Assembly: GCA_965217585.1 (NCBI GenBank)
Contig: OZ244561.1
Span: forward strand, 3,776,001 to 3,840,000
DNA from: Candidatus Latescibacterota bacterium
Lineage (GTDB): Bacteria; Latescibacterota; UBA2968; UBA8231
Reading direction: 5' to 3'
Length of the DNA stretch: 64,000 bases
In this document: positions 5,442 to 49,855 of the stretch, piece by piece
Layout: every line of letters starts with the position of its first letter
How positions within the stretch are numbered: position 1 is the stretch's first letter
Notes under the pieces: model-generated
What the model was told of the DNA's origin: nothing
What the model saw: the letters and a program-made list of their open reading frames with translations, nothing else
Database searches by the model: none
Made by a program: the position numbers and the translations under genes

Positions 5442-5453
5442 ATCAAACCTCGT

Positions 5454-31195: not shown

Positions 31196-31214
31196 TGCGA
31201 GTATCTCCTGACGT

Positions 31215-32204: not shown

Positions 32205-32207
32205 ACG

Positions 32208-32984
32208 CTAGTACCCCAAATCGGCGCGGACGCGCGCCATCTGTTGGCAGCCAGCCGCGAGAAACGGCTCGTCGCCGCCAGCGAGAATCAGCGAGAAGCC
32301 GTCGTCCATGGCGCGTTGGATTGCTTGCGGGTCGCTGGCCGGGCGATAGACCCCGATGCCGGCGGGCTTGCCCGCGCGGCGAGCGGCTGCGGCGAGCTGG
32401 GCCTGGGCGTCTTGGAAAACAGACCCCTCGTAGTCAAAGGGCACCCCCAGCGAAATGGACAGATCCACCGGGCCGATGACGAACGTATCGACACCATCGA
32501 CAGCGAGAATCTCGTCGATATTGGCGACCGCCTCGGCCGTTTCGATCAGAGCGATGAATACCACTAAGTCGTTTATCTCCGCGAAGTACTCGTCGGTGCG
32601 CAATCCGTACTGAGCGGCCCGATGCGGTCCAAAACCGCGAATGCCAACTGGAGGATAGCGGCAGGCGCGAGCGCCTTCTGCGGCTTGGGCGGCGGTGTTT
32701 ACGAACGGGGCGAGGATGCCCAGCGCACCCATGTCGAGGTAGAGGCGGATCTGCTCCTCGTCGATGCGCGGCAGGCGGACGATGGGCGTGGCCGGGGTAT
32801 TGCCGATGGCCTGCAATTGCGCCTGGATACCGGTGGGGGTTTGCGGCGCGTGTTCCGAATCGATGACGAGAAAATCAAAGCCCGAGTGGCCGAACAGTTC
32901 GGCAATGGCCGGAGAGCCAAAGCGGAGCTGGGCACCGAAAGCGGGTTTGCCCGCGGCGAGTTGGTCCTTGATGCGGTTGTGCAT
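32208..32984 (-). CDS. HpcH/HpaI aldolase family protein
   Basis: IDSEHAP, YPPVGIRG, LIET, IGPVDLS. Confidence 0.93.
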   Translation of the reverse strand: MHNRIKDQLAAGKPAFGAQLRFGSPAIAELFGHSGFDFLVIDSEHAPQTPTGIQAQLQAIGNTPATPIVRLPRIDEEQIRLYLDMGALGILAPFVNTAAQAAEGARACRYPPVGIRGFGPHRAAQYGLRTDEYFAEINDLVVFIALIETAEAVANIDEILAVDGVDTFVIGPVDLSISLGVPFDYEGSVFQDAQAQLAAAARRAGKPAGIGVYRPASDPQAIQRAMDDGFSLILAGGDEPFLAAGCQQMARVRADLGY

Positions 32985-32992
32985 GTAGTCTC

Positions 32993-34901: not shown

Positions 34902-36581
34902 TCATGTGTTGCGCACGAGGGCCTCCACCTGCTCGCGGAAGACCTCAATTTGCGCTGCGTATTGGTGGCGCAATTGGATAATGAATTGCCCAAAGAGCCG
35001 CTCCTGCTTTTGGCGGCGCACCAGCGCCCGCGCTCGGCGCTCGGCCTGCGCGAAGGGCCTCGGTGCGGCGTTGATCGTCGAATCGAGCAACCGGAAAATG
35101 GCGTAGTACGGGCCGCTGACCGGCTCAGAGCTTAGCACCTCGGCGGCGGTGACCTCCACGGCGATGGGGCCGATGAGTGTGCCGATTTTTTGCCCTTGTG
35201 CCGCCTCAAAGAGTGGGACGAACTGTTGCTTTTCCCAAGGATGCAGATGGAACTCGCCCTGCTGGGCTTTGCCGCGCCGGCGCAGGGTGTGCTCGGCAGC
35301 CAGCGCGCCTAAGTCGCCGCCGCGCTCCACCTCCTCGCGCAGCGCGAGCGCCTCCTCCTCGGTGCGGAGCAAAATTTCCTGCACACCGATCGATTCGAGG
35401 GGGCGGAAAAGGTCTAAGTGGCGGTCGTAGAACGCGCGAGCTTCTTCGCGGCTGGCGAAGACGCCATCGACCACGTCCCGGCGCATGGCCACCAGTAGCT
35501 TTGATAGCTGCCGCTTTTGGAACCAAGCGACCACGCCCTCTTCGCGGTCAACGCCCGCCGTATACGCGCCAGCCAAGAGCAGGGCTCGCGGCTCGACGAT
35601 GTCCTCGACGAACCAATCGAACCGCTCGGGCGCGTCCTCTGGGAAGCCGACGCCTAGCTCGCGGGCAAAATCGAGCAGATTGCCGATGGTAAAGACGCCG
35701 CTCTCGTGCTCGTAGATAGGCTGCTCAAGCTCCTCCGCAGAAAACGCCTTGGCACCCTGCCCGATGCGCCCGCGTACGCGCTCCAAAGCTTGGGCGTGAA
35801 CCACAAAGTCGAGTTCCTGCCGCAAGCGGGCCGACAGCGCCTGCACGGCCGGCGGCAGCTTCTCCGCGAGCAGTTCGGCCTCGATTACCAACTGTACGAC
35901 CGAGAGCGCGACCGGCACTTCGGCTGTTACCTCGTACACGCCGAACTGGTCGTTGAAGAGCACTGGCTCCGAAAACTGGCCCGGTGCCAGCGGAAAGACC
36001 TCTTCCTGCAAGATGGATGGGTACAGCTCGTCCTTGAGCAGGTAGCGGCCTCCCTCTAGCTGAGTCGCGTTGAGCAGGTTGCGGCTGGCCCATGTATCGA
36101 AGTAGTCGCCGCCTTCCAAGGCCGCCTTGACTTCTCGCGCCTCTTGTATTGTGGCAACTACGATGCGCCGCACCTGCACGGCGCGGTCGCGGCCCGTCTC
36201 TCGTTGATGGGCCAGCAGTTCTTCTTGCGTGTGGACGATCTTGTCGTACACCTCTAGCTGCAAAAAGCGGCGCAAGACGCGGTCGCTATACAATTTGTCC
36301 ATCTTGCGGCGGAAGTCGGCGCGCTGGTCGAGGCCCCGCTTTTTGGCTTCTAGGACCATGAGCTCCTTGTCGATCATAGTTTGCAAGTAGTCGAAATAGG
36401 CGTCAGCACCCGTCTTTTTGCTCCGCAGATCGGGGTGTAGCCTTTCTTCAAATTCCAGCAATTGGGGGGCGTCGATTTCCACCTCGCCGACTCGGGCCAC
36501 CACCAAGTCCTCGGTTGGGGTGCCGCAGCCCCAGAAAACGAGGAGCCACAACCAATATACCGCGTATTTCGATCTAATCAC
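34902..36581 (-). CDS. PpiC/SurA/PrsA-like peptidyl-prolyl isomerase lipoprotein
   Basis: Lipobox LLVFWGC, VVARVG, MIDKELMVLEAKKRGLD, two parvulin-like domains. Confidence 0.82.
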   Translation of the reverse strand: MIRSKYAVYWLWLLVFWGCGTPTEDLVVARVGEVEIDAPQLLEFEERLHPDLRSKKTGADAYFDYLQTMIDKELMVLEAKKRGLDQRADFRRKMDKLYSDRVLRRFLQLEVYDKIVHTQEELLAHQRETGRDRAVQVRRIVVATIQEAREVKAALEGGDYFDTWASRNLLNATQLEGGRYLLKDELYPSILQEEVFPLAPGQFSEPVLFNDQFGVYEVTAEVPVALSVVQLVIEAELLAEKLPPAVQALSARLRQELDFVVHAQALERVRGRIGQGAKAFSAEELEQPIYEHESGVFTIGNLLDFARELGVGFPEDAPERFDWFVEDIVEPRALLLAGAYTAGVDREEGVVAWFQKRQLSKLLVAMRRDVVDGVFASREEARAFYDRHLDLFRPLESIGVQEILLRTEEEALALREEVERGGDLGALAAEHTLRRRGKAQQGEFHLHPWEKQQFVPLFEAAQGQKIGTLIGPIAVEVTAAEVLSSEPVSGPYYAIFRLLDSTINAAPRPFAQAERRARALVRRQKQERLFGQFIIQLRHQYAAQIEVFREQVEALVRNT

Positions 36582-39432
36582 TAAGCCCTGCTTGTACTGT
36601 GACGAAAGTCAATCCACTGGTTTCGGTGCGGGCCTGCTGCGCCGCGCGCTCTATCTGCCGCTTGTCAATGCGCAGCCCCACTTGGGACATGAGCTTATAG
36701 CCCAAGTACGATGTCGTATTGGACAATTGCACGGCAAAGGACGTCTCGTCGTAGTCCCCAGTGGAGTCGCCCGGGTTGACGGTGGTTTCGTCCACGACCA
36801 TGTCGCGGAAGCGCAAGTGCTCCACGCCGAGTTGTACGACCGAGCGTTTCATAAAGGGCACCTTTACCAATACCGAGGCCATCGTGCTCCAGTCGCGGCG
36901 CTCGGCTGTGGGGGTGCCCAGCTGCCGCTCGATATTGAACGGGGTATCGTCCATGAACAGCTCTTGCTTGAGGCGCGGTAGCGCGGTTATGCGGCCCAAA
37001 TGCACCGGGTACTCGGCCTTGTTGATCAGCCCCAAGCGCCGCGCATTGCGTTGCAAGGGGCGGCCATCGCGGTCAACGGCATCTTCTCGCCGCTGCTGAA
37101 TGAATTCATACAGCAGCTTGTTCTCGCTTTGGAAGCCATCGCGGCCGCGGCGCTCAGCGCCTATCCACAGCTTGTTGACCAAGGCGTCGCCCATACCCAG
37201 CGGATCGCGGATGGCGGTCATGCTGCCCGGGGAGTTGCTCGGGCGACCGAGCACGGGGCGCAGTTGAATCCACTGCACCAAGTCTTCGGCGATCGCGTCG
37301 GCGACCCACTTGAACGAATTATACGCCGTCAGCGTGCCCAATCCGGCAAAGCTCTGTTCGTACGCGAGCAGGGCATAATACGTGCGGTTGCGTGCACCCG
37401 TCGTCGGCTTGCGCTCCCACACCTGTCCAGTCGTCAGCTTGAGCTCGGGCCGGAGCTCCGCGCTTAGATAGGCGTTGTACCCGCGCCGGTCGCGCTTGTA
37501 GGGGTAGTCGGGCTCTTCGTCGTTTTCAAAGCGGTCGCCCCAGCCGTTGTTGTTCAAGTCGAGAGCGAAGAGATATTCCGGCCGATCGACATTGTAGCGG
37601 AGAAAAGGCTCTTCGTAGTCGGGCAAGAAATTGGGACGCTGGCGCAGGTCGTTTTGATTGAAATCGGAAATAAAGTCGTTGTTCTCGTCGAGGCCCGGGA
37701 AGACCGCGTCGTCGGCAAAGCCCTCAAAGGTGCGCGCGCGGACGCCGCGCTGGTCGCCGGTGCGGCCGTCGTCAAAGCGGCGCTTCTGGTCGTTGATGCG
37801 GTCGTTGTCGTCATTGTCATCGACAAAGTCGTACACGTGCCGCGCCCGCGCTTCGTCGTCGTTTGACCAATCAACCCGGCCGCTGCTATCGACAAAGCGG
37901 GGGCTCGTGTCGTATTCGGCGTCTAGGCCAAATGCCTCGCCAAAAAAGAAAAACGGTGCGAAGCGGCGCGATACATTGAACATCCAGCCGAGGGCCGCGC
38001 GATCCCCGCCAATGCCCGAGGACGCTTTGTGCGTATCCCGCGTCCGCGTCGGGTACTGGGTGAATTGGTGATTGACGTTGAATTCGCCGTACGCGCGGAA
38101 GCCAGCCCAATCGTCGGCCTGTAGCGTCAGCCCGGCTACCTGCGTCGCCGTCGGCAGCCCGTAGTCGAAGACCACCGTCCGCTGGTTGGAGTTGTCCCAG
38201 ACGTTGCCCTCGGCCCGGGCGACCGTGCGAAACTGCGGCTGCTCGCCGCTGAAGTTGTTGTCGGTCTGGCGGTTGGACGTGACCTCTACCTTGTAGTCGT
38301 TGCCCAACGCCAAGTGGAAGCGCACCCGGCTGATTTGGTTGACCAAGTCCGCGCTCGGCACTACGGCCTCTAGGTCCGAGACCGCCGGATCGTCGTCGGA
38401 AAACACGTATTCGAGCAAGATCTGGCTCGCCTCGCCCCGGCCCTCGGCCGTCAGAAAACCACCCCGCTCGATCCCACCGATGATGCGCGGCGCGAAGCCA
38501 ATCTGACTGCCAATTAGCAGGGTATCCCGCTCGCCGATCCGCGTCTCAATCTCAATGTCGCTGCTAAAAAGCACGGCCCCGCCGCCCTCGTCTTCGGGCG
38601 AATCGTCGGTCAGCCGCACCACGATGCGGTCGATGCGTCCGTCTAGCTGGCCGCTCGTCAGCTTACCCTTGAGCGGGTGTCCCTCAAAGCGGTCGGAAGC
38701 CGTGCGGCCGTTGTGCGCGTTGAGAAAGGTGCCGCCGATCCGCGTCGTAGCACCCAGGTCCCAGACCACGCGCCCGCCGATGAGGTTGGTGAAATTGTCC
38801 TCTGTCACGGGAAAGGGGTCCGTGCGGAAAAGCGGCAGGTTGATCCGCGACATGAGCACGGTGGCCGTCAGGCGATCAGCCGCGTAGTTGAACATAACCC
38901 CATTGTACGCGGTCTTGCGAAAGGTCATGGGCGTCAGCATGGCGAAGATTTCGTCGCCGATGAGCACCGAGAAATAGTGCTGGCCCTTGGTGTCGCCGGC
39001 AAGGACCAAGTTGTTGAACCACGAGCCGTATTGGCCGGCCTGCAAAATGCCCGAGCCGCCCGAGCCGGTTGGCTGTATCTGACGCCAGTCGTAGATCAAC
39101 CAGCCCTTGTTCAAGAAGCGCCCGTAGAGGTCGTAGAAGTACCCGCCCTCCAAGGCGGGATTGAGGTAGCGCCGGTATGGGTCCCGCGCGTAGTTGGTGT
39201 AGGTCCACTGCCGGCGGTACTCGCCGGCGATTTCCTGCGGCAGATACCACTTCTGCAACGAGGGATAGACGGCCTCCATGCGCAGCCCCGTGCCGGACGA
39301 ATAGTAGATCGGCTGGCCCGCTTCGATGCGGCCCAAGCGGCTACCGTAATCCTCGCGCTGGGCCTTGAGCGGCGCGGCCCCAAGCAGCGCGACCCAGCAG
39401 AGAGCGCCGACGCGGCGCAAGCAGGCATTCAT
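36574..39432 (-). CDS. Large secreted hypothetical protein, predicted outer-membrane beta-barrel (paralog B)
   Basis: Signal peptide; alternating beta pattern in the C-terminal third; acidic loops DDNDDND, DENND, DLNNNG. Confidence 0.6.
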   Translation of the reverse strand: MNACLRRVGALCWVALLGAAPLKAQREDYGSRLGRIEAGQPIYYSSGTGLRMEAVYPSLQKWYLPQEIAGEYRRQWTYTNYARDPYRRYLNPALEGGYFYDLYGRFLNKGWLIYDWRQIQPTGSGGSGILQAGQYGSWFNNLVLAGDTKGQHYFSVLIGDEIFAMLTPMTFRKTAYNGVMFNYAADRLTATVLMSRINLPLFRTDPFPVTEDNFTNLIGGRVVWDLGATTRIGGTFLNAHNGRTASDRFEGHPLKGKLTSGQLDGRIDRIVVRLTDDSPEDEGGGAVLFSSDIEIETRIGERDTLLIGSQIGFAPRIIGGIERGGFLTAEGRGEASQILLEYVFSDDDPAVSDLEAVVPSADLVNQISRVRFHLALGNDYKVEVTSNRQTDNNFSGEQPQFRTVARAEGNVWDNSNQRTVVFDYGLPTATQVAGLTLQADDWAGFRAYGEFNVNHQFTQYPTRTRDTHKASSGIGGDRAALGWMFNVSRRFAPFFFFGEAFGLDAEYDTSPRFVDSSGRVDWSNDDEARARHVYDFVDDNDDNDRINDQKRRFDDGRTGDQRGVRARTFEGFADDAVFPGLDENNDFISDFNQNDLRQRPNFLPDYEEPFLRYNVDRPEYLFALDLNNNGWGDRFENDEEPDYPYKRDRRGYNAYLSAELRPELKLTTGQVWERKPTTGARNRTYYALLAYEQSFAGLGTLTAYNSFKWVADAIAEDLVQWIQLRPVLGRPSNSPGSMTAIRDPLGMGDALVNKLWIGAERRGRDGFQSENKLLYEFIQQRREDAVDRDGRPLQRNARRLGLINKAEYPVHLGRITALPRLKQELFMDDTPFNIERQLGTPTAERRDWSTMASVLVKVPFMKRSVVQLGVEHLRFRDMVVDETTVNPGDSTGDYDETSFAVQLSNTTSYLGYKLMSQVGLRIDKRQIERAAQQARTETSGLTFVTVQAGLSD

Positions 39433-39436
39433 GCCG

Positions 39437-42193
39437 CTACTCCAGCCCCGCGTACACGGTTATGAAGCTGGTGCTAAAGGCGCTGATTTCATTCACCTGC
39501 TCCAAGCCTTCGCTGCCGATAATCACCCGCTCCTCCCACAGGCGCGTATAACTAAAGCCAAACTGCGTCGTGAGCTGGTAGCCCAAGTAGGAGCCGGCGC
39601 TGGACCATTGCAGGGCCAGCACCAAGTTGCGGAAGTCGCCCGTAGGCCCGGCCGGGCCGTTGGTGAGCTGCTCGTCCTCGTCGAGAGCCAAGTCCCGGAA
39701 CAGGGAAAACTCGACGCCCCCTTCCACCAGCGACTGGCTCAACAGCGGGTGGCTCAGCAGCACGATGCCCGTGCCGACCCATTCCTCGCGGTCCTCGGCG
39801 CGCGCTTCGAGCGCGGTCTGGTTGAGATACTCGCTCTTGACCTTGGGCTGCAACCGGAAGCCAGCCAAGCCGAAGGTGTAATCCGCTTTGTTGATCAACC
39901 CAATCAAGTGGCTGCCTTGGTTGAGCACCGGGCCTTTGACGCGGCTTTTGAACGCGCTACCCTGCTGCCAAAAGCGCTCGTACTTGAACTTGTTGCTCGC
40001 GTTTAGATTGTCGAGCGGTTGGTAATCGAGCTGTAAATAGGTCGTGTTGATCCACGTGTCCCGCGCCGGCAGAATGTCGCGCACCAGCGCGAGCGAGTTG
40101 ACTTCGAGGTGCGGCGTCATCTCGCGCCGGTCATCGGCGATATCGTCTTCGACGCGCCGCAGCATCTCAAAGGCCCGCAGCCGGCCCCAAGTAAAGTCGC
40201 GGTCGTAGGTCAGCAGGCCGTACGCAGCGCGGTTGCGCCCGTCGGAGGCCATGCTCTCTTCGCTCAGCCTTCCCAACGTCAGCCGGGTGTGCGGGTCGAG
40301 GAAGACGCCGGCGTACAGGTTGTAGCCTCGGCGATCGACCTTGTAGGGATAGTCGGGCAAGTCGTCGTTTTCAAAGCGGTCGATCCAACCATTGTTGTTT
40401 AGGTCGATGCCAAACAAAAACTCCGGGCGATCGGCCGCATAGCGGAAGAAAGGCTCTTCGTAATCCGGGATGCGGTTGTTGAGAATGCGATTGTCGTTTT
40501 GGTTGAAGTCGGAGACAAAGTCGTTGTTTTCGTCCCACCCCGGGAAGACGGCCACATCGCCGCCGCCCTGCGAGAAGCGGAACCAATCGGCCGAGCGGTC
40601 TTGATCGTCGTTGTCGTCAACCAACTCGTACAGGGACGTGCGCGGATTGTCGTAGGTAATGTCCCCGTTGTCGTCCACGATAAACGAACTCGTCGAGTAA
40701 TCCGGGTCCATGCTGTACGCCTCGCCAAAAAAGTAAAACGGGGCGGCCACTTTTGCGGCGTTGACCATCCAAGCCTCGGCGTCGCGGGCGTGCGTGGCTA
40801 GCGAGCGATCGGCCGCTTGGTGCGCCGGGTTGGGGTACTGGCTGTACGCGCGGCTGACATCGAATTCCGCGTACAGGTCCACGCCCTTGATATCCGTGGC
40901 GTCCAAGGTGAAGCCGTAGATAAAGCGGGACGACGGCAATCCGTAGTCGAAGACGACCCGCTGCTGGTTGGAATTGTCCTGCACATTGCCCTCGGCGCTG
41001 AGGATGTCGAACAACGCCGGAGACTGATCCTCAATGTCTTGGCCCGTCAGCGGCAATACCGGCAGAGCGCGGCTGCCCGTTTGCCGGTCGGACCAAACCT
41101 GCACCTTGTAGTCGTTGGCCAAGACTAAGTCGAACTGCACGGCGACGATCTCCGAGGACCGCGGGCCGGTATAGGCGATATCCGCGAAGTCGTAGTTGAT
41201 GACGATCTTCTCGTCGCCGTCGGCCGCTAAGGCCCCTTCCTTGGGTGCCCCGCCCGAGACCACGGGCCACCGCGCCGGATCGGAGACCACGTCGCGGAGC
41301 CTAAATTGCTCGCGCTCCCCCGTATCTGGATCCTCGCTCGTCAAGAGGATGTCGTGCGAAAACAGGGTGGCCCCGCCCCGACCATCCTCGGGCGAGTCGT
41401 CGCTGAGGATCAGGGCAATGCCCGAGACCGGCAGGCTGCCCTGATTGGCAGCGAGGGTGCCGACGAAGGGGTTGCGCTCAAACGCATCGGCCACTGTGGT
41501 GGAGTTGCGCGCATTGACTAAATTGGCCCCCACGGCCACGAAATCGCCGATCTGCACCACGGCGCGGCCCGCCATCAGGTTGGTGGCATTGGAGACGCCA
41601 CTGGGGGCGCTGGGCGTGCTGCCGATGACCGGGCGGCTCACCCGCGAAAAGAGGAGGGTGCCCTCGTACTTGTCCGCGGCAAAGTCCATCTGCACGCCGC
41701 TGAAGGCCGGCTTGGAAAAGGTGAGCGGGGTCAGGGTCGTGCGGATTCGATCGCCCACCGTGATGGCATAGTAGAACTGGCCTTGCGAGTCCGAGCTAAT
41801 GGTAACCGCGTTGAACCAGTTGTTAAAGCGCCGATCCTTGAAGATGGACGAACCAAATTGCACGGGCTGGTTCTGGCTCCAGTCGTAGATGAGCCAGCCG
41901 CGCGTCAAGTAGTTGCCGTACAGGTCGTAAAACGGAGAGCCTTCAATCGTGGTGCTGACGTAGCGCTCGTACGCGTCGCGCGCGTAGTTGGTGTACTGCC
42001 ACTGCTGCCAGCCGTAGTCGGCAAACAGCTCCTGCGGCACGTACCAGCGCTTGACCGTTGGATCCAAGGCGTCGAAGAGCACGCCCGGCCCCCGCGGTTC
42101 ATAGGTGATTTCCGCGCCCCAGCGCCGGCCTTGGGCATGGGCACTTATCGCCGCGACGAGCAAGGCGGCGAGTACCCACCGTAGGTCTCTCAT
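39437..42193 (-). CDS. Large secreted hypothetical protein, predicted outer-membrane beta-barrel (paralog A)
   Basis: Shares YTNYARD, FYDLYG..L..GWLIYDW, DDSPED, DNSNQ..VVFDYGLP and PDYEEPF with 36574-39432. Confidence 0.6.
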   Translation of the reverse strand: MRDLRWVLAALLVAAISAHAQGRRWGAEITYEPRGPGVLFDALDPTVKRWYVPQELFADYGWQQWQYTNYARDAYERYVSTTIEGSPFYDLYGNYLTRGWLIYDWSQNQPVQFGSSIFKDRRFNNWFNAVTISSDSQGQFYYAITVGDRIRTTLTPLTFSKPAFSGVQMDFAADKYEGTLLFSRVSRPVIGSTPSAPSGVSNATNLMAGRAVVQIGDFVAVGANLVNARNSTTVADAFERNPFVGTLAANQGSLPVSGIALILSDDSPEDGRGGATLFSHDILLTSEDPDTGEREQFRLRDVVSDPARWPVVSGGAPKEGALAADGDEKIVINYDFADIAYTGPRSSEIVAVQFDLVLANDYKVQVWSDRQTGSRALPVLPLTGQDIEDQSPALFDILSAEGNVQDNSNQQRVVFDYGLPSSRFIYGFTLDATDIKGVDLYAEFDVSRAYSQYPNPAHQAADRSLATHARDAEAWMVNAAKVAAPFYFFGEAYSMDPDYSTSSFIVDDNGDITYDNPRTSLYELVDDNDDQDRSADWFRFSQGGGDVAVFPGWDENNDFVSDFNQNDNRILNNRIPDYEEPFFRYAADRPEFLFGIDLNNNGWIDRFENDDLPDYPYKVDRRGYNLYAGVFLDPHTRLTLGRLSEESMASDGRNRAAYGLLTYDRDFTWGRLRAFEMLRRVEDDIADDRREMTPHLEVNSLALVRDILPARDTWINTTYLQLDYQPLDNLNASNKFKYERFWQQGSAFKSRVKGPVLNQGSHLIGLINKADYTFGLAGFRLQPKVKSEYLNQTALEARAEDREEWVGTGIVLLSHPLLSQSLVEGGVEFSLFRDLALDEDEQLTNGPAGPTGDFRNLVLALQWSSAGSYLGYQLTTQFGFSYTRLWEERVIIGSEGLEQVNEISAFSTSFITVYAGLE

Positions 42194-42206
42194 TAGACTC
42201 TCCTAA

Positions 42207-44366: not shown

Positions 44367-44377
44367 CGCAACCTCCC

Positions 44378-46870
44378 TCAATACACCACGTGAACGAGGT
44401 GGTGCCGCGCGGTGCGCTCCACGCGCGAGTCGTCGTTGGGCACCACTTCTACCTCTAGCAGATATAGTCCAGGGAGGACCAGTGCGCCGGATTGATCTTC
44501 GCACGACCAGCGCAGGGCGTACTCGCCGCTGACCAAGGGCCGCGTCTCCTGCCAGTGCCGCACCAGCCGGCCGGCTAGGTCGTAAATCCGCACGTGGAGC
44601 GGCTGGGTGCCGGTCAGCTTAGTGACCGCGAATGAGAACGCCAACTCGTCGTTGATCCCATCCCCATTCGGCGTCGCGACCCCACTGCCAATGTTCAGGT
44701 CGCCCAGCACGTGGCGGCCGCCTTCTGGACCTACCAACAGCATCCCCTGCCCGGTCGCCAACTCCGTTGCATCCGCTGGATCAACCCGCTGCCAGGAGTT
44801 CTCAAGGGCCGAATGCCCCAACGACGCCTTGAACACAGCACCGGGCAAGTAGAGGGCGGTGGCGAATTGTACCTCAATCAGATCGGCTGCGGACGGGGCG
44901 ACGACCTCGCTTAACCGCACCCACAAAGAGTCTGGGGCGGTCGCCACCACTTCTGCTGAGGCCGCTAGTTCCGCGCTGTCCCATTGGGCCTCGCGCCCCA
45001 GCCGCAGTCCGCGGAACTCCAGTACCATGTTGTCCGGTGCCCTTATCTGCACCTCGTCAAACCCCGCGCTCTGGGAAGCAAAGCTCGGTTTGATGAAAAG
45101 CGAAAGCTCCTGCTCCTTGCCCAACGCGCCCACGACGCTGGGTTCGATCTCGCCCAAAAGCTGGCTGGCCAACGGCTCGACGAAGTTGAGCCGAATGGAG
45201 CGCAGTTCGGCCGCGCGGTGCGGGTCGTCCGAGAGCAAGCGGGCCTTGAGCTCCAGAAATTGGCGCGGGCTTGGCGAAGTGATCGCCGCGCCCGAGGCCT
45301 CGTAGGGCAAGCTCCACGCGCTCCAGTCGGCTCCAGGGGCTTCCGTCGTGTCGATCCGCCCCTTGCTGAAAAAGCCCAAGCCGGCGTATGCCTCGGCCGA
45401 AACTTCGGCACCGCCGCTGTTGAAGTAGCTATACTCTTCGACCAACTCGCTGCCCGTGCGCGTCTGAATTTCGACAAAGGTCCCCAAATCGGCGTCTCCA
45501 TCCCATTCAATCGAGACCAAGTTTTTCGAGCCGCCCAAGCGGATGAGCGGCGAAACCAACTCGACCTCCGGCTGGAAACCCTCTCCGTAGAACTGCACCT
45601 CGCGCGGCTTGAACTGACCGCCTCCCCAGAACAAAATTCGCGCAAAGCGCGTTCGCGCCGGCGCGAACGTATCCACGTCGTACACATCTTCGGTCGTGTG
45701 GGCGGAAGTGGCGCGATTGCGATGCGAGGCCTGCGTCGTCCACACCAGCGAGCCGTCCGCAGCCAGCGAGCCGTCTGAAGTCTGCAAGTCGTAATTGGGA
45801 AAGCGGCTGCGCTGGCGGTCGTAGTAAATCTGGTGCCGGTCGATCCAGAAGAAAGAGCCTAAGTCGAAGAATAATTCCCGTATCTCGTCGGTGCTGGTAA
45901 AGGCCAAGGACGTCTCAAAGATGCCGTCGAAGAAGGCCGTCGCGGGCGCGTTGTCCAAGAAAGTGAGCAACGCGACGCCTCTGCGCTCCACCAAGCCCAG
46001 CGAGATGTTTTCCCCGAGCGTCTGGACCTCCAGCTCGGCCAGCCGCGGCCGCTCGCGGCGGTAGCGGCGGATCTCACCGCGCAACGCGGAGTCAACCACC
46101 TCGTACGTGGCCTCGCTCACCTGCACTTGGCCCGCACCGGCCTTTTTGTAAAAATCCACCGCGCCCCGATCCGCAGCCGCTAGCTGGTCGTATTGTTCAG
46201 CCGACACCTCGGCGGCTCGCGTGCTATCCGTGTCGGTGATCGTCATGCGCACGAAGCGGATGTAGTCGCTCGCCATGCGCCCGTCTATGTCAAAGCGCGT
46301 GGGGCCCAGCTCGATTGCAAATTCTCGTTGATCCTTGTTCGACTGCAAAGTGCGGAAGACTTGGTTGAATTTGCGCTGGCCTTTCGTCACCTCGTCTCCG
46401 TCCGAGGTCAAGACCACGAATTGCAGGAAGGGATCGCCTAGCTCCCCGCCGACGAATTTGAGCCGGATGTGGGTGGCCGCCACCAGCCGCCCCAAATCGA
46501 CCTCGAACCACCATTGGCGCAGCGGGCTTGCCGGATCGGGTTCCCAATAGGTGCTCAAGTCTCCGTCGAAAAGGTGAACCAGATCTGCGGCCCGAGTGCC
46601 CGCGTTGAGGGCGTCGCGCAGGGTCGCGTCCTCCGAGTCCTTGCCGCGCTTGATAAACGCCGCGATGTCTGACGTTGCCAGTATGTTCTTGGGCACGAAG
46701 TGAGGACGCACGGCCCCGGTTTCGTCGATGTCGAGCGTGCCGGCGGGAAAAGTCCACTGCTGCCAGTGCGTCTGCCGATCGACGACGACCTTATTCCCGG
46801 CGATGGTATGGCCCTGTCCCCAGGCGGCGACAACGCCCAATATGCTCAGCAGCAACGCAGCATTCAACAT
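44378..46870 (-). CDS. Secreted protein with discoidin-like domains and PNGDGIND/FlgD-Ig C-terminal domain (paralog 2)
   Basis: LFDGDLSTYW, WFEVDLG, QTRTG, WSAWSLPY, TPNGDGIND, YDLAGRLVR. Confidence 0.78.
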   Translation of the reverse strand: MLNAALLLSILGVVAAWGQGHTIAGNKVVVDRQTHWQQWTFPAGTLDIDETGAVRPHFVPKNILATSDIAAFIKRGKDSEDATLRDALNAGTRAADLVHLFDGDLSTYWEPDPASPLRQWWFEVDLGRLVAATHIRLKFVGGELGDPFLQFVVLTSDGDEVTKGQRKFNQVFRTLQSNKDQREFAIELGPTRFDIDGRMASDYIRFVRMTITDTDSTRAAEVSAEQYDQLAAADRGAVDFYKKAGAGQVQVSEATYEVVDSALRGEIRRYRRERPRLAELEVQTLGENISLGLVERRGVALLTFLDNAPATAFFDGIFETSLAFTSTDEIRELFFDLGSFFWIDRHQIYYDRQRSRFPNYDLQTSDGSLAADGSLVWTTQASHRNRATSAHTTEDVYDVDTFAPARTRFARILFWGGGQFKPREVQFYGEGFQPEVELVSPLIRLGGSKNLVSIEWDGDADLGTFVEIQTRTGSELVEEYSYFNSGGAEVSAEAYAGLGFFSKGRIDTTEAPGADWSAWSLPYEASGAAITSPSPRQFLELKARLLSDDPHRAAELRSIRLNFVEPLASQLLGEIEPSVVGALGKEQELSLFIKPSFASQSAGFDEVQIRAPDNMVLEFRGLRLGREAQWDSAELAASAEVVATAPDSLWVRLSEVVAPSAADLIEVQFATALYLPGAVFKASLGHSALENSWQRVDPADATELATGQGMLLVGPEGGRHVLGDLNIGSGVATPNGDGINDELAFSFAVTKLTGTQPLHVRIYDLAGRLVRHWQETRPLVSGEYALRWSCEDQSGALVLPGLYLLEVEVVPNDDSRVERTARHHLVHVVY

Positions 46871-46882
46871 GGCCCCTGCTCC

Positions 46883-48829
46883 TCAATAGGCGACGGCAAT
46901 GGGCCGCATTTGCACTTGGCGCTCCCCACCGCTCTCGACCTCGACTTGGCAGATGTACAGACCGGGGGCGACCTGCTGGCCGGCCTCGTCGCGCCCGTCC
47001 CATTGACGCGGATGTCGTCCCGCGCCATCGACGTCTGAGTACACGCGCCGCACCAAGCGGCCGCTCAAATCCCGCACCAGCACCTCCACCGGCACCGGCT
47101 CGGTCACTTTGAGCAGCTCGTAGGCAATCTCCACTTGGTCGTTGATCTGGTCGCCGTTGGGCGTAAACGCCTCGGTGCTCAGCGACACGGCCCCTAAGAC
47201 CTTATCGTCTAGGGTCATCGCCTGCACCAAAAGTTGATTGCCGTCCACTAGCTCGCTGGCCTCGCCGGCGGCCACGAGCTGCCCGATCTCCCCCGGCGCT
47301 GTGCTGTCGATCACCCGACCTTCAAAAATTGCGCCAAAGCGGAAAATTTCGGCGCGCACATCCACTTCGAGCAGCTCGCCGCTGCGCGCGACATCCAGCC
47401 GCGGGAAACCCAACATTACGCCGGCCACCTCGGCCACGGCACTGAAATCCGCCACGGGTGCGCCGCTGAGGCGCACGGCCTCCACGCCGACGATCCGGCC
47501 ACCGACCAAGCTCAGGTCCAACCCGTCAAATCCTTGGTCGCCGGGTTCAATCGTCGGGCGCAATGCATAGGTGAACGTGCGTTCCTCAGCCACTGCCGCT
47601 TGCCAAGGATCGACCTCGCCGACTAAGGCGGTCACCAAGCGCGGGGAAACGGCGAATTCGAGATAGTCGAGCTGGCCGCCAGCTTGGCCGAAGGATTTGA
47701 ATGCTATCCCAAACTGCACGTAGCGGTGGGAGCGCGTCGCCCGCAGGGCTACGCCCGCGCTGTCGGCGAATTCGTACGGCGACGACCACAGCTCCCATTG
47801 GGCGGTGTCGTCGGTGATGGCCCCGCGCACGATCGGCCCCAAGCGGCTATAGCTTTTGCGGGTCAGCAGCTTGCCGTCCTCGCCAAAGGGTACCTGCTCG
47901 TCGCCGCGGAAGGTCTTGCGCCAGTACACGAGCGGTGTCTCGTCACCACCGGCGCGAGAGCGGATCTCCACTTGCGCCCCTTCGTCCCGCCGCCCTCCCC
48001 AGCGCACCCAGCCCAAATTGGCGAATTCGCCTAGGTCGAGAACGTTGGACTGGTGCGAGGCCGAGCCTTGGAAACCGCCGCCGTACACCTCCAGCTCAGC
48101 CAAGTCCCATATCTCATTTTGGGGCATCACGTGAATCATCAAATAGCGGATGGGCGTCCCGTCTAGCTCAATGTCGAGCTGCGGATCTTTGTTTTCCAGG
48201 ATTTCCGCGACCACCTTTAGCTCAATGCCCTTTTGTTGCTTGGGATCCAGCGACCTACCGAGCGCACTCGTTCCGACGAATTCAATCTCATCAACGCCAC
48301 CCCCGGCCTCGGTCTGCGCGGCGACGATGACGTGGGCGACCGAGCGCTCGCTGCCTGCCTGCGGGATAAAGCGGACCAACCGCGTCGCAAAGTCGCCGCC
48401 GAGGTCAAAGAACAAAGCCGTGCCGTGGAAGTTATGAGCGTGTTCCCTAGGACGAGTCTCTAAGAAAAACGTCGTCGGGTCCCCGTCGATCACCAACCGC
48501 AACTCGTCGCCGACATCTTCAAAACCATTGTACGCGCCGTGCTGAAAATTGCCGCTGACCCCGCTCAAGGTCGTCGCCATATTATCGCCCTCGTTGTAGA
48601 AAAACGGCGTGATCTGCTCACTGAGCGCGAGCCCAAAGCTCTGGCCGCCGAGATTCTTGTCTAAGTCGGCCCAGCTCAACTGGCGAAACTCAGCACCGGC
48701 CTCCACCTCGGCCGGAGGCGGCAGGCCCTCGCCGCCGATGCGATAGACGACCAAGGCCGCGCTTGGCTGGACGCCGATCAAAGCCAACAGGGCCGCGATG
48801 AGCCACGTCGTGCGCTGCAATTCTTTCAC
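46883..48829 (-). CDS. Secreted protein with discoidin-like domain and PNGDQIND/FlgD-Ig C-terminal domain (paralog 1)
   Basis: IDGDPTTF, FFDLG, RSRAG, WELWSSPY, FTPNGDQIND, WDGRDEAG..VAPGLY. Confidence 0.78.
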   Translation of the reverse strand: MKELQRTTWLIAALLALIGVQPSAALVVYRIGGEGLPPPAEVEAGAEFRQLSWADLDKNLGGQSFGLALSEQITPFFYNEGDNMATTLSGVSGNFQHGAYNGFEDVGDELRLVIDGDPTTFFLETRPREHAHNFHGTALFFDLGGDFATRLVRFIPQAGSERSVAHVIVAAQTEAGGGVDEIEFVGTSALGRSLDPKQQKGIELKVVAEILENKDPQLDIELDGTPIRYLMIHVMPQNEIWDLAELEVYGGGFQGSASHQSNVLDLGEFANLGWVRWGGRRDEGAQVEIRSRAGGDETPLVYWRKTFRGDEQVPFGEDGKLLTRKSYSRLGPIVRGAITDDTAQWELWSSPYEFADSAGVALRATRSHRYVQFGIAFKSFGQAGGQLDYLEFAVSPRLVTALVGEVDPWQAAVAEERTFTYALRPTIEPGDQGFDGLDLSLVGGRIVGVEAVRLSGAPVADFSAVAEVAGVMLGFPRLDVARSGELLEVDVRAEIFRFGAIFEGRVIDSTAPGEIGQLVAAGEASELVDGNQLLVQAMTLDDKVLGAVSLSTEAFTPNGDQINDQVEIAYELLKVTEPVPVEVLVRDLSGRLVRRVYSDVDGAGRHPRQWDGRDEAGQQVAPGLYICQVEVESGGERQVQMRPIAVAY

Positions 48830-48847
48830 AATGGCACCTCCAAGAAG

Positions 48848-48878
48848 AAGGGGGGATGGAACTAGCCCATCCCCCCTT
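48848..48878 (-). terminator. Strong intergenic hairpin (partial terminator or mRNA stabiliser)
   Basis: AAGGGGGGATGG-7 nt-CCATCCCCCCTT, followed on the minus strand by CTTCTT. Confidence 0.7.
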
Positions 48879-48904
48879 GTCCTTCCATCCTAGACACTGC
48901 CCGC

Positions 48905-49855
48905 TTACTGGACGTAGGCAGACTTGATGCGACCCCAGCTATTCTCCTCGACCGCGCTCTCGATCGCGCTGAAATCGACGCGCGGATCAACGGGTGCCAG
49001 CAGGAAATCCGTAGCCGAAGCCGTGGTTTTCCACACGTCGCTGGCTCCCGAAAGGGACCACTGGCCAGAGTGCTCGGTATCTTGGCCAACGCCGCCATCG
49101 GCACCGGCTACATCGCTGTCGAAGACCGCCCAGCCCAAGCCGGTGATCTCGCCTTCGTTGTAGTCGTGGATGACGCTGCCGTCTGGGTCGTTGAAGAGAA
49201 AGTCATCCCAGGATTGGCGCCGCACCTCGATAAAGGCCGTGGCCTCGCCACCGCCAATTTGGCCGTCCAAGCGGAAGCCGTGGTCGGCGTAGGGCAGCTC
49301 GTCGTGCCACTGCGCTTGGGTCATCCAAAACCACGACCAACTCTCTTGGCCATCGGGACCGAGGTTCGGGAAGCGGGTGTGGTAGGACTGCGCCCAGCGG
49401 CCTTGGGCCAAGGTGCGCTCTTCCTCGTCTTCTATGTCGCCGGTGCCGAAGCGCATCTGCTCGCCTCCGTGGTCGCCATCGACGTGCATTTCCCAGCTAT
49501 CGTCGCCGCCGGCCACGCCGCCTTGGGCGTCGCGATCGTAGAAGTCGTCAAAGCGCTCCATCATGAGGTAGATGCTATTGGTCGACTCGCTCCAGCCAAC
49601 GATGGTGCGGAAGTTCAAGTCGCCGAAATCGGCCGGCTTTTCGCCGTTGAACTCGGTGTGCTCGGCAAAGGCAATCGAGTAGTCCTCGGGCACGATCGAC
49701 CATTCGGACAGATCGCCGTCCAGCGTTGGCTCAAGGCCCGCCGGCCACTGGAAAGCCGTGCGCACAGCGCCCTCGGGCACGTGCGCCGTAGCCGGAGCAA
49801 CGACGCCCACGCACAGGGCCAGTGCGAGCAAAACAGTGATTTTTTTCAAAATCAT
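48905..49855 (-). CDS. Secreted CBM9/DOMON-like sugar-binding protein with SWGRIK tail
   Basis: Signal peptide, PTLDGDLSEW, GWSE..IYL....DD, GDDSWE..VDGDH, SAVEENSWGRIK. Confidence 0.72.
   Translation of the reverse strand: MILKKITVLLALALCVGVVAPATAHVPEGAVRTAFQWPAGLEPTLDGDLSEWSIVPEDYSIAFAEHTEFNGEKPADFGDLNFRTIVGWSESTNSIYLMMERFDDFYDRDAQGGVAGGDDSWEMHVDGDHGGEQMRFGTGDIEDEEERTLAQGRWAQSYHTRFPNLGPDGQESWSWFWMTQAQWHDELPYADHGFRLDGQIGGGEATAFIEVRRQSWDDFLFNDPDGSVIHDYNEGEITGLGWAVFDSDVAGADGGVGQDTEHSGQWSLSGASDVWKTTASATDFLLAPVDPRVDFSAIESAVEENSWGRIKSAYVQ

What the first reader, a model, noticed from the sequence alone, without database searches (positions are those of the whole stretch)
34902..49855. Candidate undescribed cell-envelope system: CBM9-like protein, three paralogous tailed surface proteins, two paralogous large barrels and a dedicated PPIase
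Seen: seven co-oriented genes with gaps of at most 13 bp or overlaps (except 75 bp after the first), all with signal peptides or a lipobox; one paralog triplet and one paralog pair. None shows a TonB box/plug, SusD, secretin or POTRA motif that I can recognise. Known: CBM9/DOMON and discoidin folds bind sugars, and parvulins chaperone outer-membrane and secreted proteins. Inference: a multi-subunit surface capture, import or display machine, functionally PUL-like but built without SusC/SusD, probably lineage-specific.
Basis: partly seen in the sequence, partly recalled or inferred. Interest (0 to 1): 0.88.

Follow-up and report, generated by a model that had tools for sequence, protein, structure and literature searches.

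The report
Amplified outer-membrane barrel-lectin cassette of Latescibacterota
This is one copy of an undescribed seven-gene cell-surface module, built around a new family of large outer-membrane barrels and sugar-binding-type proteins, which an uncultured bacterial phylum repeats about forty times per genome, much as gut Bacteroides repeat their nutrient-uptake loci.

Summary
The seven genes are real and tightly packed (gaps 75, 12, 11, 13 and 4 bp, then an 8-bp overlap). The paralogies hold.

- **Copy number.** The closed 7.3-Mb Candidatus Latescibacterota genome holds at least 41 such cassettes: 81 barrel ORFs and about 150 tailed proteins, about 9% of the genome.
- **Synteny.** The order CBM9-like, T2, T3, T4, B5, B6, parvulin recurs in 49 of 76 related loci.
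- **Barrels.** The ~930-aa proteins fold (pLDDT 85) as plug-less outer-membrane barrels of about 26 strands. The family has no Pfam or NCBIfam model and matches only generic barrels.
- **Gene 1.** It has a true CBM9 fold.
- **Tails.** They are type-IX-secretion-style Ig-like C-terminal domains. The genome has SprA, PorU and a PorV-like gene.

Best reading: lectin-like proteins exported by the type IX system are held on the barrels. Together they form a surface capture, and probably import, module. It is PUL-like in multiplicity but unrelated to SusC/SusD.

Function is inferred. Catabolic enzyme families are not enriched nearby, whereas a polytopic DUF6785 membrane protein is. I found no description in the literature searched.

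The parts
49973..51496 (-). g0: TPR protein with a lipobox-like N-terminus, 117 bp upstream of g1. A likely assembly or tethering factor.
   Evidence: Many TPR Pfam families. Generic TPR lipoprotein hits (PilW, Tgl, PorW/SprE), all below their cut-offs. Present upstream in the orthologous loci L009-L024 and in 60%-identity loci. An RNA-library contig spans g1 and the 3' part of g0.
48905..49855 (-). g1 (C9): secreted CBM9-fold protein with a conserved C-terminal tag T-A-V-E-x-x-S-W-G-R-I-K.
   Evidence: No direct Pfam or NCBIfam hit. 9 of 84 homologues carry PF06452. The family profile hits CBM9 1i82 at E 5.5e-6. AF2 pLDDT is 85.9. Foldseek finds 7nwo at E 7.3e-9 and 1i82_A at TMt 0.73. Tag.
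46883..48829 (-). g2 (T2): secreted protein with a discoidin-like region and an Ig-like C-terminal domain of type-IX-secretion style.
   Evidence: FlgD_ig 39.2 bits (cut-off 27) and CHU_C 23 bits (below 27). Matches the PorU C-terminal region of NF033707. Paralogous to g3 and g4.
44378..46870 (-). g3 (T3): as T2, with an extra N-terminal discoidin (F5/8 type C) domain.
   Evidence: PF22633 29.7 bits (cut-off 27.8), PF00754 27.4 bits (below 28.2), FlgD_ig 21.7 bits (below the cut-off). Paralogy.
42207..44366 (-). g4 (T4): third tailed paralogue. It lies directly upstream of the barrel gene in 75 of 76 related loci.
   Evidence: FlgD_ig 38.7 bits. TIGR04183 21.1 bits (cut-off 23). The profile hits FlgD Ig domains and the PorU C-terminal domain 6za2 at E 0.0079. 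Adjacency.
39437..42193 (-). g5 (B5): outer-membrane beta-barrel of about 26 strands, from a new family. It carries an inserted beta domain (~288-418) and a D/N-rich segment (~500-620), both read as extracellular.
   Evidence: No Pfam or NCBIfam hit. AF2 pLDDT 85.0, pTM 0.83. Only generic barrel matches. Family size. Conservation.
36574..39432 (-). g6 (B6): second barrel, a separate orthology class found in 12 of 41 cassettes of this genome.
   Evidence: 37% identical to g5 over the full length. No Pfam hit. B5 and B6 classes are kept apart in related loci. Counts.
34902..36581 (-). g7: parvulin-type peptidyl-prolyl isomerase with a lipobox-like N-terminus. A cassette-dedicated chaperone or subunit.
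   Evidence: Rotamase_2 51.6 bits and Rotamase 25.3 bits. Weak PrsA and PpiC matches in the PDB. 38 paralogues, present in 29 of 41 barrel runs.
30512..34891 (-). Downstream co-oriented genes, probably the same operon: g8 (32993-34891, 632 aa, no signal peptide seen), an HpcH/HpaI aldolase, a D-2-hydroxyacid dehydrogenase and a short-chain dehydrogenase.
   Evidence: Gaps of 10, -10 and 3 bp. Pfam hits. g8 follows the parvulin in 14 of the 16 orthologous loci L009-L024. g8 has no Pfam, NCBIfam or PDB match. Atlas lead: DUF8034.

Best explanation
The window holds one two-barrel copy of a Latescibacterota-wide envelope cassette that is amplified about forty-fold per genome. I read it as an outer-membrane surface complex for ligand capture and probably uptake.

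**Shown.**
- Two paralogous plug-less barrels of about 26 strands, from a family with no known relatives.
- Three paralogous discoidin-type proteins, each ending in an Ig-like C-terminal domain of the kind that marks type IX secretion cargo.
- A CBM9-fold protein.
- A parvulin and a TPR protein with lipoprotein-like N-termini.
- Conserved order, and separate orthology classes for T2, T3, T4, B5 and B6.

**Inferred.**
- The three tailed proteins cross the outer membrane through the genome's single SprA translocon. They stay at the surface, docked on the barrels' large, highly conserved, probably calcium-binding extracellular cap.
- The tailed proteins and the CBM9-like protein bind a polymer, most likely a glycan.
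- The barrel, or barrel pair, lets fragments through without TonB energy.
- The parvulin and TPR lipoproteins fold, assemble or stay bound to the complex.
- Uptake continues through polytopic inner-membrane proteins (DUF6785/DUF6784) that cluster with the cassettes, and in this window through the cytoplasmic enzymes encoded directly downstream.
- Each cassette would serve a different ligand.
For: **Multiplicity.**
- 81 barrel ORFs in the genome, 62 of them above 200 bits.
- 41 runs contain a strong barrel. Of these, 33 have two or more tailed proteins, 27 a CBM9-like gene, 29 a parvulin, and 22 all of these (lower bounds).
- The seven families cover 659,853 bp, 9.0% of the genome.

**Synteny.**
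- The full order occurs in 49 of 76 related loci, and the T4-B5-B6 core in 74 of 76.
- Median identity in 36 diverged full-order loci: B5 64%, B6 57%, T4 53%, T3 48%, C9 48%, T2 44%, parvulin 37%. The barrel is thus the conserved core and the putative binders vary, as in SusC versus SusD (a comparison I recall, not one tested here).

**Barrel.**
- pLDDT 85, about 25-26 long strands, short turns after even strands and long loops after odd strands.
- No plug, while 25 Plug-domain proteins are found elsewhere in the same genome.
- The D/N-rich segment 522-620 is the most conserved part of the family (0.62 against 0.42 overall).

**Type IX link.**
- FlgD_ig is above its cut-off in g2 and g4.
- The tails match the C-terminal domain of PorU.
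- SprA and PorU are above their cut-offs, and a PorV-like gene sits beside PorU.
- The same tail sits on unrelated secreted families: FG-GAP, CotH, BNR and LVIVD.

**Binding folds.** CBM9 and discoidin.

**Uptake link.**
- DUF6785/6784 proteins, which have 10 or more hydrophobic helices, lie within 7 genes of a strong barrel in 26 of 70 cases, against 4.8 expected.
- The operon runs on into an aldolase and two dehydrogenases.

**Expression hint.** RNA-library contigs from two studies lie on the cassette at 95% identity or more. This is weak evidence, because DNA carry-over is not excluded.
Against: - No binding, transport or localisation has been measured.
- The catabolic families tested are not enriched near the cassettes: sulfatase 4 of 45, GFO/IDH/MocA 7 of 66, enolase-type dehydratase 4 of 68, PhyH 8 of 87.
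- No regulator of the PUL kind was seen among the recurrent neighbours.
- A 26-strand barrel without a plug or an energy source is an odd importer. Solved barrels of this size (LptD, MtrB) sheath a partner protein instead (one search gives the fold matches; their biology is recalled).
- Hits of the tails to the curated type-IX models are below cut-off: TIGR04183 21.1 against 23, CHU_C 23 against 27.
- The same Ig-like domain also ends BlaR1-ExbD membrane fusions, so it is not always a secretion tag.
- The enrichment tests treat paralogues as independent, which overstates them.
- Strand count and topology come from a secondary-structure string, not from coordinates.
Confidence: 0.45

Rival explanations
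1. Surface display only. The barrels are anchors, and the tailed proteins and the CBM9-like protein are adhesins for host matrix, particles or other cells. The many cassettes would give a repertoire of binding specificities, with no solute passing the barrels.
For: - The domains are lectin-type.
- The T9SS-style tails resemble cargo with a cognate anchor barrel.
- Catabolic enzymes are not enriched nearby.
- The binders diverge faster than the barrels.
- Two of the RNA runs that hold near-identical pieces are labelled sponge metagenome, a setting where adhesion could matter.
Against: - Polytopic DUF6785 membrane proteins are enriched beside the cassettes (26 of 70).
- In this window the operon continues into cytoplasmic catabolic genes with gaps of 10 bp or less.
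- About 900 residues and 26 strands is far more than an anchor needs.
Confidence: 0.25
2. A dedicated export and assembly pathway resembling chaperone-usher. The barrels translocate the three tailed subunits, the parvulin lipoprotein is their periplasmic chaperone, and the Ig-like tails mediate subunit-subunit or subunit-barrel strand exchange.
For: - One chaperone-type gene and one or two barrels sit with several paralogous Ig-tailed subunits in each locus.
- The parvulin is the fastest-diverging member (median 37%), as expected of a client-specific chaperone.
- FimD and PapC ushers appear among the fold matches (Foldseek E 2.4e-5, TM 0.21-0.24).
Against: - There is no usher Pfam hit, and the usher matches are no better than those to other barrels.
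- The same tail type sits on 104 proteins outside the T family, most of them far from any barrel.
- The genome has a complete-looking SprA/PorU/PorV set, which points to general type IX export.
Confidence: 0.12
3. A structural outer-membrane lattice or tether, resembling the SlpA-based complex of Deinococcus, rather than a ligand-handling machine.
For: The best structural match of g5 is the SlpA barrel: 8ae1_A at E 4.6e-8 and 7zgx_A at Z 13.1 with 396 residues aligned.
Against: - TM-scores are only 0.20-0.26 and sequence identity 8-10%.
- No SLH or coiled-coil part was found.
- Forty diverged cassettes per genome, each with its own binders, do not fit a single structural layer.
Confidence: 0.05
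4. Divergent SusC-like TonB-dependent transporters whose plug escaped detection.
For: SusC chains appear among the generic barrel matches (8aa4_A Z 11.1, 5t3r_D Z 10.9). The multiplicity is PUL-like.
Against: - No Plug or TonB_dep_Rec hit even at E <= 10, while the same search finds 25 Plug domains elsewhere in this genome.
- The model shows no globular N-terminal domain; residues 22-114 are of low confidence and short.
- There are about 26 strands rather than 22.
- The cassette has no SusD.
Confidence: 0.02

Closest known systems
Type IX secretion type-B cargo with a cognate PorP/SprF-like outer-membrane barrel (SprB-SprF of Flavobacterium johnsoniae; recalled, no paper read here)
   Same: The cargo genes carry an Ig-like C-terminal domain (sub-threshold CHU_C hits) and lie next to a dedicated outer-membrane barrel gene. 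The genome has SprA, PorU and a PorV-like gene. The phylum belongs to the FCB group.
   Different: - The barrels have about 930 residues and about 26 strands. They give no NCBIfam hit at all, so none to PorP/SprF, and the genome gave no PorP match (the control rang nowhere).
- Each barrel or barrel pair has three cargo classes.
- The cassette also has a CBM9-like protein, a parvulin and a TPR protein.
- There are about 40 copies per genome.
SusC/SusD polysaccharide utilisation loci (utilisomes) of Bacteroidota
   Same: - Many diverged copies per genome, each of a barrel plus surface binding proteins.
- The barrel is more conserved than the binders.
- Inner-membrane proteins are linked to the loci, and catabolic genes follow the cassette in this window.
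   Different: - No plug, no TonB box, no SusD.
- The binders are not lipoproteins but carry secretion-type tails.
- Catabolic families are not enriched nearby.
- No hybrid two-component or sigma/anti-sigma regulator was seen among the recurrent neighbours.
Large plug-less barrels that sheath a partner: LptD-LptE, MtrB-MtrA/MtrC
   Same: The size class matches, and these are among the best Foldseek matches (6r2q_B E 2.4e-7, 5iv9_A E 9e-7). A lipoprotein partner is encoded alongside.
   Different: TM-scores are 0.16-0.32 and identity 7%. There are no LptD or Mtr family hits, no cytochromes and no LPS genes.
CBM9 (Thermotoga maritima Xyn10A CBM9-2, PDB 1i82) and the wider DOMON-like fold
   Same: g1 matches by profile (E 5.5e-6) and by fold (TMt 0.67-0.73).
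   Different: g1 is a free-standing 316-aa secreted protein, not a module of an enzyme. It has an added conserved C-terminal tag, and a His as the first residue after the predicted signal-peptide cut in 46 of 47 family members.

Membership tests
TonB-dependent transporter / SusC | N-terminal plug domain (PF07715) and TonB_dep_Rec barrel signature | tested here: not met
   No Pfam hit for g5 or g6 at E <= 10 and none in NCBIfam at E <= 0.1. As a positive control, the same family search finds 25 Plug domains elsewhere in this genome.
TonB-dependent transporter / SusC | 22-strand barrel | tested here: inconclusive
   The secondary-structure string of the model gives about 25-26 long strands, but I could not inspect coordinates.
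SusD / RagB | SusD-like TPR-fold lipoprotein encoded beside the barrel | tested here: not met
   No SusD-family Pfam or NCBIfam hit in any of the seven proteins. The upstream TPR protein hits only generic TPR models.
Type IX secretion cargo (C-terminal sorting domain) | C-terminal ~80-residue Ig-like domain recognised by curated T9SS models | tested here: inconclusive
   - FlgD_ig is over its cut-off in g2 (39.2) and g4 (38.7) and under it in g3 (21.7).
- CHU_C scores 23, 17.9 and 19.1 against a cut-off of 27.
- TIGR04183 scores 21.1 against 23.
- The T4 profile hits the PorU C-terminal domain 6za2 at E 0.0079.
Type IX secretion cargo (C-terminal sorting domain) | A type IX machinery in the same genome | tested here: met
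   SprA 483.5 bits (cut-off 200). PorU 627.5 bits (cut-off 420). A PorV-like gene beside PorU scores 153.8 bits, below the cut-off of 250.
Type IX secretion cargo (C-terminal sorting domain) | Secretion and tail removal depend on the type IX system | not testable with these tools
   This needs genetics or proteomics in an uncultured lineage.
PorP/SprF cognate barrels | Match to TIGR03519 | tested here: not met
   g5 and g6 give no NCBIfam hit. The genome-wide search found none, but its control rang nowhere, so absence from the genome is not shown.
CBM9 (PF06452) | Sequence and fold of the CBM9 beta-sandwich | tested here: met
   g1 itself gives no Pfam hit. However, 9 of 84 homologues carry PF06452, the family profile hits 1i82 at E 5.5e-6, and Foldseek gives 7nwo at E 7.3e-9 and 1i82_A at TMt 0.73.
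CBM9 (PF06452) | Carbohydrate binding by an aromatic clamp | not tested
   W52 and W183 are invariant in the family. Their equivalence to the CBM9 clamp was not checked, because no coordinates were available.
Parvulin PPIase | PPIC-type rotamase domain | tested here: met
   Rotamase_2 51.6 bits (cut-off 27) and Rotamase 25.3 bits (cut-off 21.7) in g7.
Discoidin / F5_F8 type C | Galactose-binding-like domain | tested here: met
   g3 scores 29.7 bits on PF22633 (cut-off 27.8). g2 and g4 have no direct hit but align to the second such region of g3.
Chaperone-usher, Omp85/POTRA, secretin | Usher, POTRA/Bac_surface_Ag or secretin Pfam domains | tested here: not met
   None at E <= 10 in g5 or g6. 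Usher, BamA and TamA chains appear only among the generic barrel matches.

The most novel reading that the evidence does not exclude
Latescibacterota have their own TonB-independent outer-membrane nutrient-capture and import machine. It evolved separately from SusC/SusD. Lectin-like proteins exported by the type IX system dock on a new family of 26-strand barrels with a calcium-binding cap. Each of about 40 cassettes per genome serves a different polymer. A second, previously unnoticed C-terminal tag (T-A-V-E-x-x-S-W-G-R-I-K, on 72 proteins) recruits CBM9-like and other exported proteins to the same complexes.
Probability: 0.3. Interest if true: 0.9.

Novelty: categorically new. Interest (0 to 1): 0.8.

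Why it matters
**Scale.** About 9% of a 7.3-Mb genome goes to one unannotated kind of module. The barrel family was found in all 63 sampled genomes of the organism's family and in 93 of 151 genomes of the phylum.

**Consequences for existing annotation.** Current metabolic reconstructions of this widespread uncultured phylum cannot see its main envelope machinery. The 2015 analysis, of which I read passages, assumed non-specific porins.

**If it is an uptake system.**
- It would be a second, independent solution to the problem that Bacteroidota solve with SusC/SusD.
- It would give a handle for predicting substrates of Latescibacterota from their genomes.

**If it is a display system.** It would be a large adhesin repertoire built on a new anchor.

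**Either way.** The barrel family, the DUF6785/DUF6784 membrane proteins and the C-terminal tag are concrete targets for structure determination and binding assays.

Tried and rejected
- **Complex prediction.** B5 (residues 21-918) with the T4 tail (622-719) gave no answer, score 0.00. This is neither for nor against binding. The barrel pair and the whole proteins exceed the 1000-residue limit.
- **Related-locus scan.** The scan with alignment A1 failed for lack of a conserved stretch. I repeated it with the single protein.
- **Fused forms.** A search for longer forms of the barrel found none. This is weak evidence.
- **Promoters and terminators.** Neither count rose above the shuffled controls, and no operon boundary was defined.
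- **SprA co-occurrence.** SprA is found in 146 of 151 genomes of the phylum, so it cannot discriminate.
- **T4 profile against the PDB.** It recognised only the tail. The body domains beyond the discoidin region remain unassigned.
- **g8.** No Pfam, NCBIfam or PDB match. The only lead is an Atlas feature match to DUF8034 clusters.
There is no OPT hit at E <= 10 in Pfam and no PDB match, so this is unsupported here.
- **Histidine-brace idea for g1.** The near-invariant H129 aligns with a His of ordinary CBM9, so only the N-terminal His is special. The idea is left as a note.
- **Thrombospondin-type repeat.** No such model hits the D/N-rich segment.
- **Stretches without RNA-library contigs** (for example about 42.9-44.1 kb in two runs). 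These say nothing.
- **Literature searches that found no description of the cassette.** Latescibacterota with outer membrane and polysaccharide, with type IX secretion, with polysaccharide utilization loci, with sponge, sulfatase and outer membrane, with T9SS and with barrel; also DUF6785 alone and WGRIK alone. For these I saw listings and abstract openings only, apart from passages of PMC4454575. Subscription journals are not covered.


Full report
**What is in the sequence**

Seven minus-strand ORFs occupy 34902-49855. With the ATG at 44366 for g4, which orthologues share, the gaps are 75, 12, 11, 13 and 4 bp, then an 8-bp overlap. Shine-Dalgarno-like GGAGG sites precede g1 to g5.

- The two large proteins are 37% identical over their full length.
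- The three tailed proteins are mutually related at E 2e-48, 2e-28 and 6e-34.
- All seven start with a hydrophobic segment (read by eye; no predictor was available).
- The Cys-containing N-termini of the parvulin and of the upstream TPR protein look like lipoprotein signals, but they do not fit a strict lipobox pattern.

A TPR gene lies 117 bp upstream. Downstream, a 632-aa protein without a signal peptide, an HpcH/HpaI aldolase, a D-2-hydroxyacid dehydrogenase and a short-chain dehydrogenase follow on the same strand, with gaps of 10, -10 and 3 bp.

**The parts**

*g7 (parvulin).* It scores 51.6 bits on Rotamase_2. In the PDB it gives only weak PrsA and PpiC matches.

*g2-g4 (tailed proteins).*
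- They end in an Ig-like domain. FlgD_ig scores 39.2, 21.7 and 38.7 bits against a cut-off of 27.
- They give sub-threshold hits to both type-IX sorting-domain models and to the C-terminal domain of the PorU sortase.
- g3 has a discoidin domain over its cut-off. g2 and g4 align to g3's second such region.
- Atlas neighbours of g4 are unnamed clusters from Latescibacterota and Gemmatimonadota with the same domains.

*g1 (CBM9-like).*
- It has no direct family hit, but 9 of its 84 homologues carry PF06452.
- A profile of the family hits the CBM9 of Thermotoga xylanase 10A at E 5.5e-6.
- Its model (pLDDT 85.9) matches CBM9 structures at E 7e-9 and TM 0.67-0.73, and more weakly matches DOMON-like haem subunits.

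*g5 and g6 (barrels).*
- They have no Pfam hit even at E <= 10 and no NCBIfam or PDB sequence match.
- The g5 model, built on 67 sequences, has pLDDT 85.0 and pTM 0.83.
- Its secondary structure shows about 25-26 long strands from residue ~115 to 916, with short turns after even strands and long loops after odd ones. The two big insertions therefore read as extracellular: a beta domain at ~288-418 and an irregular D/N-rich segment at ~500-620 (inferred from the string, not from coordinates).
- Foldseek and the wide structural search return only large outer-membrane barrels of many unrelated families. SlpA is the best match (E 4.6e-8, TM 0.26; Z 13.1 over 396 residues), followed by MtrB, LptD, SprA, ushers and SusC. 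Identity is 6-12%.
- There is no plug. The same genome has 25 recognisable Plug domains elsewhere.
- The D/N-rich segment is the most conserved part of the family (0.62 against 0.42 overall) and has about twenty invariant or nearly invariant Asp/Asn/Glu residues.

**How common it is**

The window lies in a single-contig genome of 7,323,734 bp. Related records are titled Candidatus Latescibacterota MAGs, some Gemmatimonadota.

- A six-frame search finds 104 matches to g5 in this genome.
- BLAST against a crude ORF set gives 81 barrel ORFs, about 140 tailed-protein ORFs over 100 bits, 39 g1-like and 41 parvulin hits.
- In a non-overlapping ORF set there are 41 runs with a strong barrel, 29 with one barrel and 12 with two.
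  - 33 of 41 have two or more tailed proteins.
  - 27 have a g1-like gene.
  - 29 have a parvulin.
  - 22 have all of these.
- These are lower bounds, because the greedy ORF choice lost some genes, including g4 of this window.
- The seven families cover 659,853 bp, 9.0% of the genome.
- Eleven further runs hold only divergent barrels. These are often triplets beside a ~1086-aa TPR protein with BamD-like and PorW/SprE-like regions.

Outside the genome:
- At least 1054 proteins match g5 in the clustered collection. None of the 120 listed has a Pfam domain or a name other than 'hypothetical'.
- 718 representatives at 50% identity match among 1.84 billion proteins.
- Within the phylum the family was found in 93 of 151 sampled genomes. 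That includes 63 of 63 genomes of the organism's own family and 0 of 49 in two sister families of the same class.
- No fused longer form was found.

**Synteny**

Among the 76 loci fetched around g5 relatives:
- 49 keep the full order C9-T2-T3-T4-B5-B6-parvulin.
- 74 keep T4-B5-B6.
- 11 show the variant C9(opposite strand)-T4-B5-B6-T2-T3.

T2, T3, T4, B5 and B6 behave as separate orthology classes. In 36 diverged full-order loci the median identities are B5 64%, B6 57%, T4 53%, T3 48%, C9 48%, T2 44% and parvulin 37%. The loci were chosen by likeness to g5 and many come from related genomes, so they are not independent.

**Context that bears on function**

*Type IX secretion.*
- The genome has SprA (483.5 bits), PorU (627.5 bits) and a PorV-like gene beside PorU (153.8 bits, below its cut-off).
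- No PorP/SprF match was found, but that search's control rang nowhere.
- A profile of the T4 tail finds 271 ORFs, and in 205 of them the match lies at the C-terminus. 167 belong to the T family and 104 do not.
- Of the 16 non-T ORFs scanned, most are FG-GAP proteins. One is a CotH-LTD protein, one a BNR protein and one an LVIVD protein. Two are BlaR1-ExbD membrane fusions.
- The tail is therefore a general module in this organism, most simply a type-IX sorting domain, though not in every protein.

*Recurrent neighbours.* The following families lie within seven genes of a strong barrel more often than expected:

| Family | Near a barrel | Expected |
|---|---|---|
| Polytopic DUF6785/DUF6784 membrane protein | 26 of 70 | 4.8 |
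| FG-GAP/ASPIC proteins | 20 of 48 | 3.3 |
| TPR protein with a PMT_2-type glycosyltransferase region | 11 of 14 | 1.0 |
| Unannotated 275-aa protein | 9 of 21 | 1.4 |

Sulfatases (4 of 45), GFO/IDH/MocA oxidoreductases (7 of 66), enolase-type dehydratases (4 of 68) and PhyH dioxygenases (8 of 87) are not enriched. Paralogues in tandem are not independent, so the p-values overstate.

*RNA libraries.* Contigs from RNA libraries of two studies lie on most of the cassette at 95% identity or more and bridge gene junctions. One 2,024-nt piece spans g3/g2 and one 1,396-nt piece spans g1/g0. The tool warns that this does not prove transcription.

**Reading**

The most economical model has these steps:
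1. The three lectin-like proteins are exported by the type IX system and held on the barrels' conserved extracellular cap.
2. Together with the CBM9-like protein they capture a polymer.
3. The barrel, or barrel pair, lets fragments through.
4. The parvulin and TPR lipoproteins assemble the complex or remain part of it.

The number of cassettes, the conservation gradient, the link to polytopic membrane proteins and the catabolic genes fused to this operon favour nutrient capture and import (0.45). A display-only repertoire (0.25) and an usher-like dedicated export route (0.12) are not excluded. A SusC-type TonB-dependent mechanism is very unlikely (0.02).

**Comparison and novelty**

By function the closest things are two:
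- type-IX type-B cargo with cognate PorP/SprF barrels (recalled from memory, not read here);
- SusC/SusD loci.

By membership it fails every test that could be run for TonB-dependent transporters, SusD, PorP/SprF, ushers, Omp85 and secretins. Only the accessory parts (CBM9, discoidin, parvulin, TPR) belong to known families.

Eight literature searches found no description. The 2015 genome analysis of the phylum, of which I read passages, assumed non-specific porins.

Earlier unchecked notes of this scan describe the same kind of cassette at another place in this genome and in other genomes, with a similar reading. They are not independent evidence.

This report adds:
- the census in a closed genome;
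- the two-barrel variant with its orthology classes;
- the fold evidence for g1;
- the neighbour enrichment tests;
- the C-terminal tag.

**The tag**

g1 and its relatives end in T-A-V-E-x-x-S-W-G-R-I-K-[AS]-x-F.
- A six-residue pattern from it hits 75 ORFs of the genome, 72 of them within 15 residues of the C-terminus. Shuffled proteins give 3.
- Positions outside the pattern are conserved too: T in 63, V in 62 and A in 52 of 72.
- 42 of the 72 have a CBM9-like body and 30 do not.
- 43 of the 72 have a tailed (FlgD_ig) ORF within 3 kb, against 7.7% of background genes.
- 41 of the 72 lie within 10 kb of a barrel, against 8.2% of background genes.

It looks like a modular docking or sorting signal whose receptor is unknown.

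Noticed in passing
window 48905-48970 (C-terminus of g1); 72 ORFs of the genome: There is a conserved C-terminal tag, T-A-V-E-x-x-S-W-G-R-I-K-[AS]-x-F. 72 of the 75 pattern hits lie within 15 residues of a C-terminus, against 3 in shuffled proteins. The tag sits on CBM9-like proteins (42) and on unrelated exported proteins (30), including PD40-like and FGE-sulfatase-type ones. It is enriched next to FlgD_ig-tailed genes and barrels. A literature search for the core letters found nothing relevant.
   Followed up: partly
window 49781-49783 (codon of His25 of g1): His is the first residue after the predicted signal-peptide cut (A-x-A|H-x-P) in 46 of 47 aligned family members, and also in a divergent 327-aa relative. 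An N-terminal His is the hallmark of copper histidine-brace proteins. The second candidate, His129, is shared with ordinary CBM9, so the idea is weak and untested.
   Followed up: partly
window 17778-19697 (-): A DUF6785/DUF6784 protein has 10 or more hydrophobic helices and is one of 70 in the genome. It sits here among GH32, PhyH, amidohydrolase, RraA-like aldolase and dehydrogenase genes. The family is enriched near the cassettes and has no PDB or literature match.
   Followed up: partly
window 52901-55108 (+) and 60998-62917 (+): Two FG-GAP/ASPIC (UnbV) proteins lie here. This family is enriched near the cassettes, 20 of 48 against 3.3 expected. A spermine-synthase-like gene lies at 62904-63965, and TPR-fused forms of that family also recur near cassettes.
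   Followed up: partly
genome G000: 3752202-3764002, 4386437-4397201, 7032218-7042853 and others: A second locus type holds three divergent barrels of the same superfamily in a row (about 30% identity to g5). They sit beside a ~1086-aa TPR protein with BamD-like, YbgF-like and sub-threshold PorW/SprE-like regions.
   Followed up: partly
genome G000: about 6794071-6853951, 3642114-3659797, 802694-819412: Arrays of ~700-aa FG-GAP proteins with the same Ig-like tail are interleaved with ~320-aa PD40-like proteins that carry the SWGRIK tag.
   Followed up: partly
L113 and L120 (genome G000 780746-782695 and 776433-778736): Membrane proteins fuse a BlaR1-type M56 peptidase domain, an ExbD/TolR domain and a C-terminal FlgD_ig domain. 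This is an unusual architecture. It also shows that the Ig-like tail is not always a secretion tag.
   Followed up: no
window 2148-9878 (-), 10264-11265 (-), 56189-58797: A likely defence and mobile patch holds a DUF499 protein, two AAA_21 (AbiEii-type) ATPases and a HEPN protein. Two DDE transposases and an N6/N4 DNA methylase lie elsewhere in the window.
   Followed up: no
window 32993-34891 (-): g8 has 13 paralogues in the genome, four of them beside cassettes. It has no Pfam, NCBIfam or PDB match. The Atlas features point to DUF8034 clusters of Actinomycetota and Poribacteria.
   Followed up: partly
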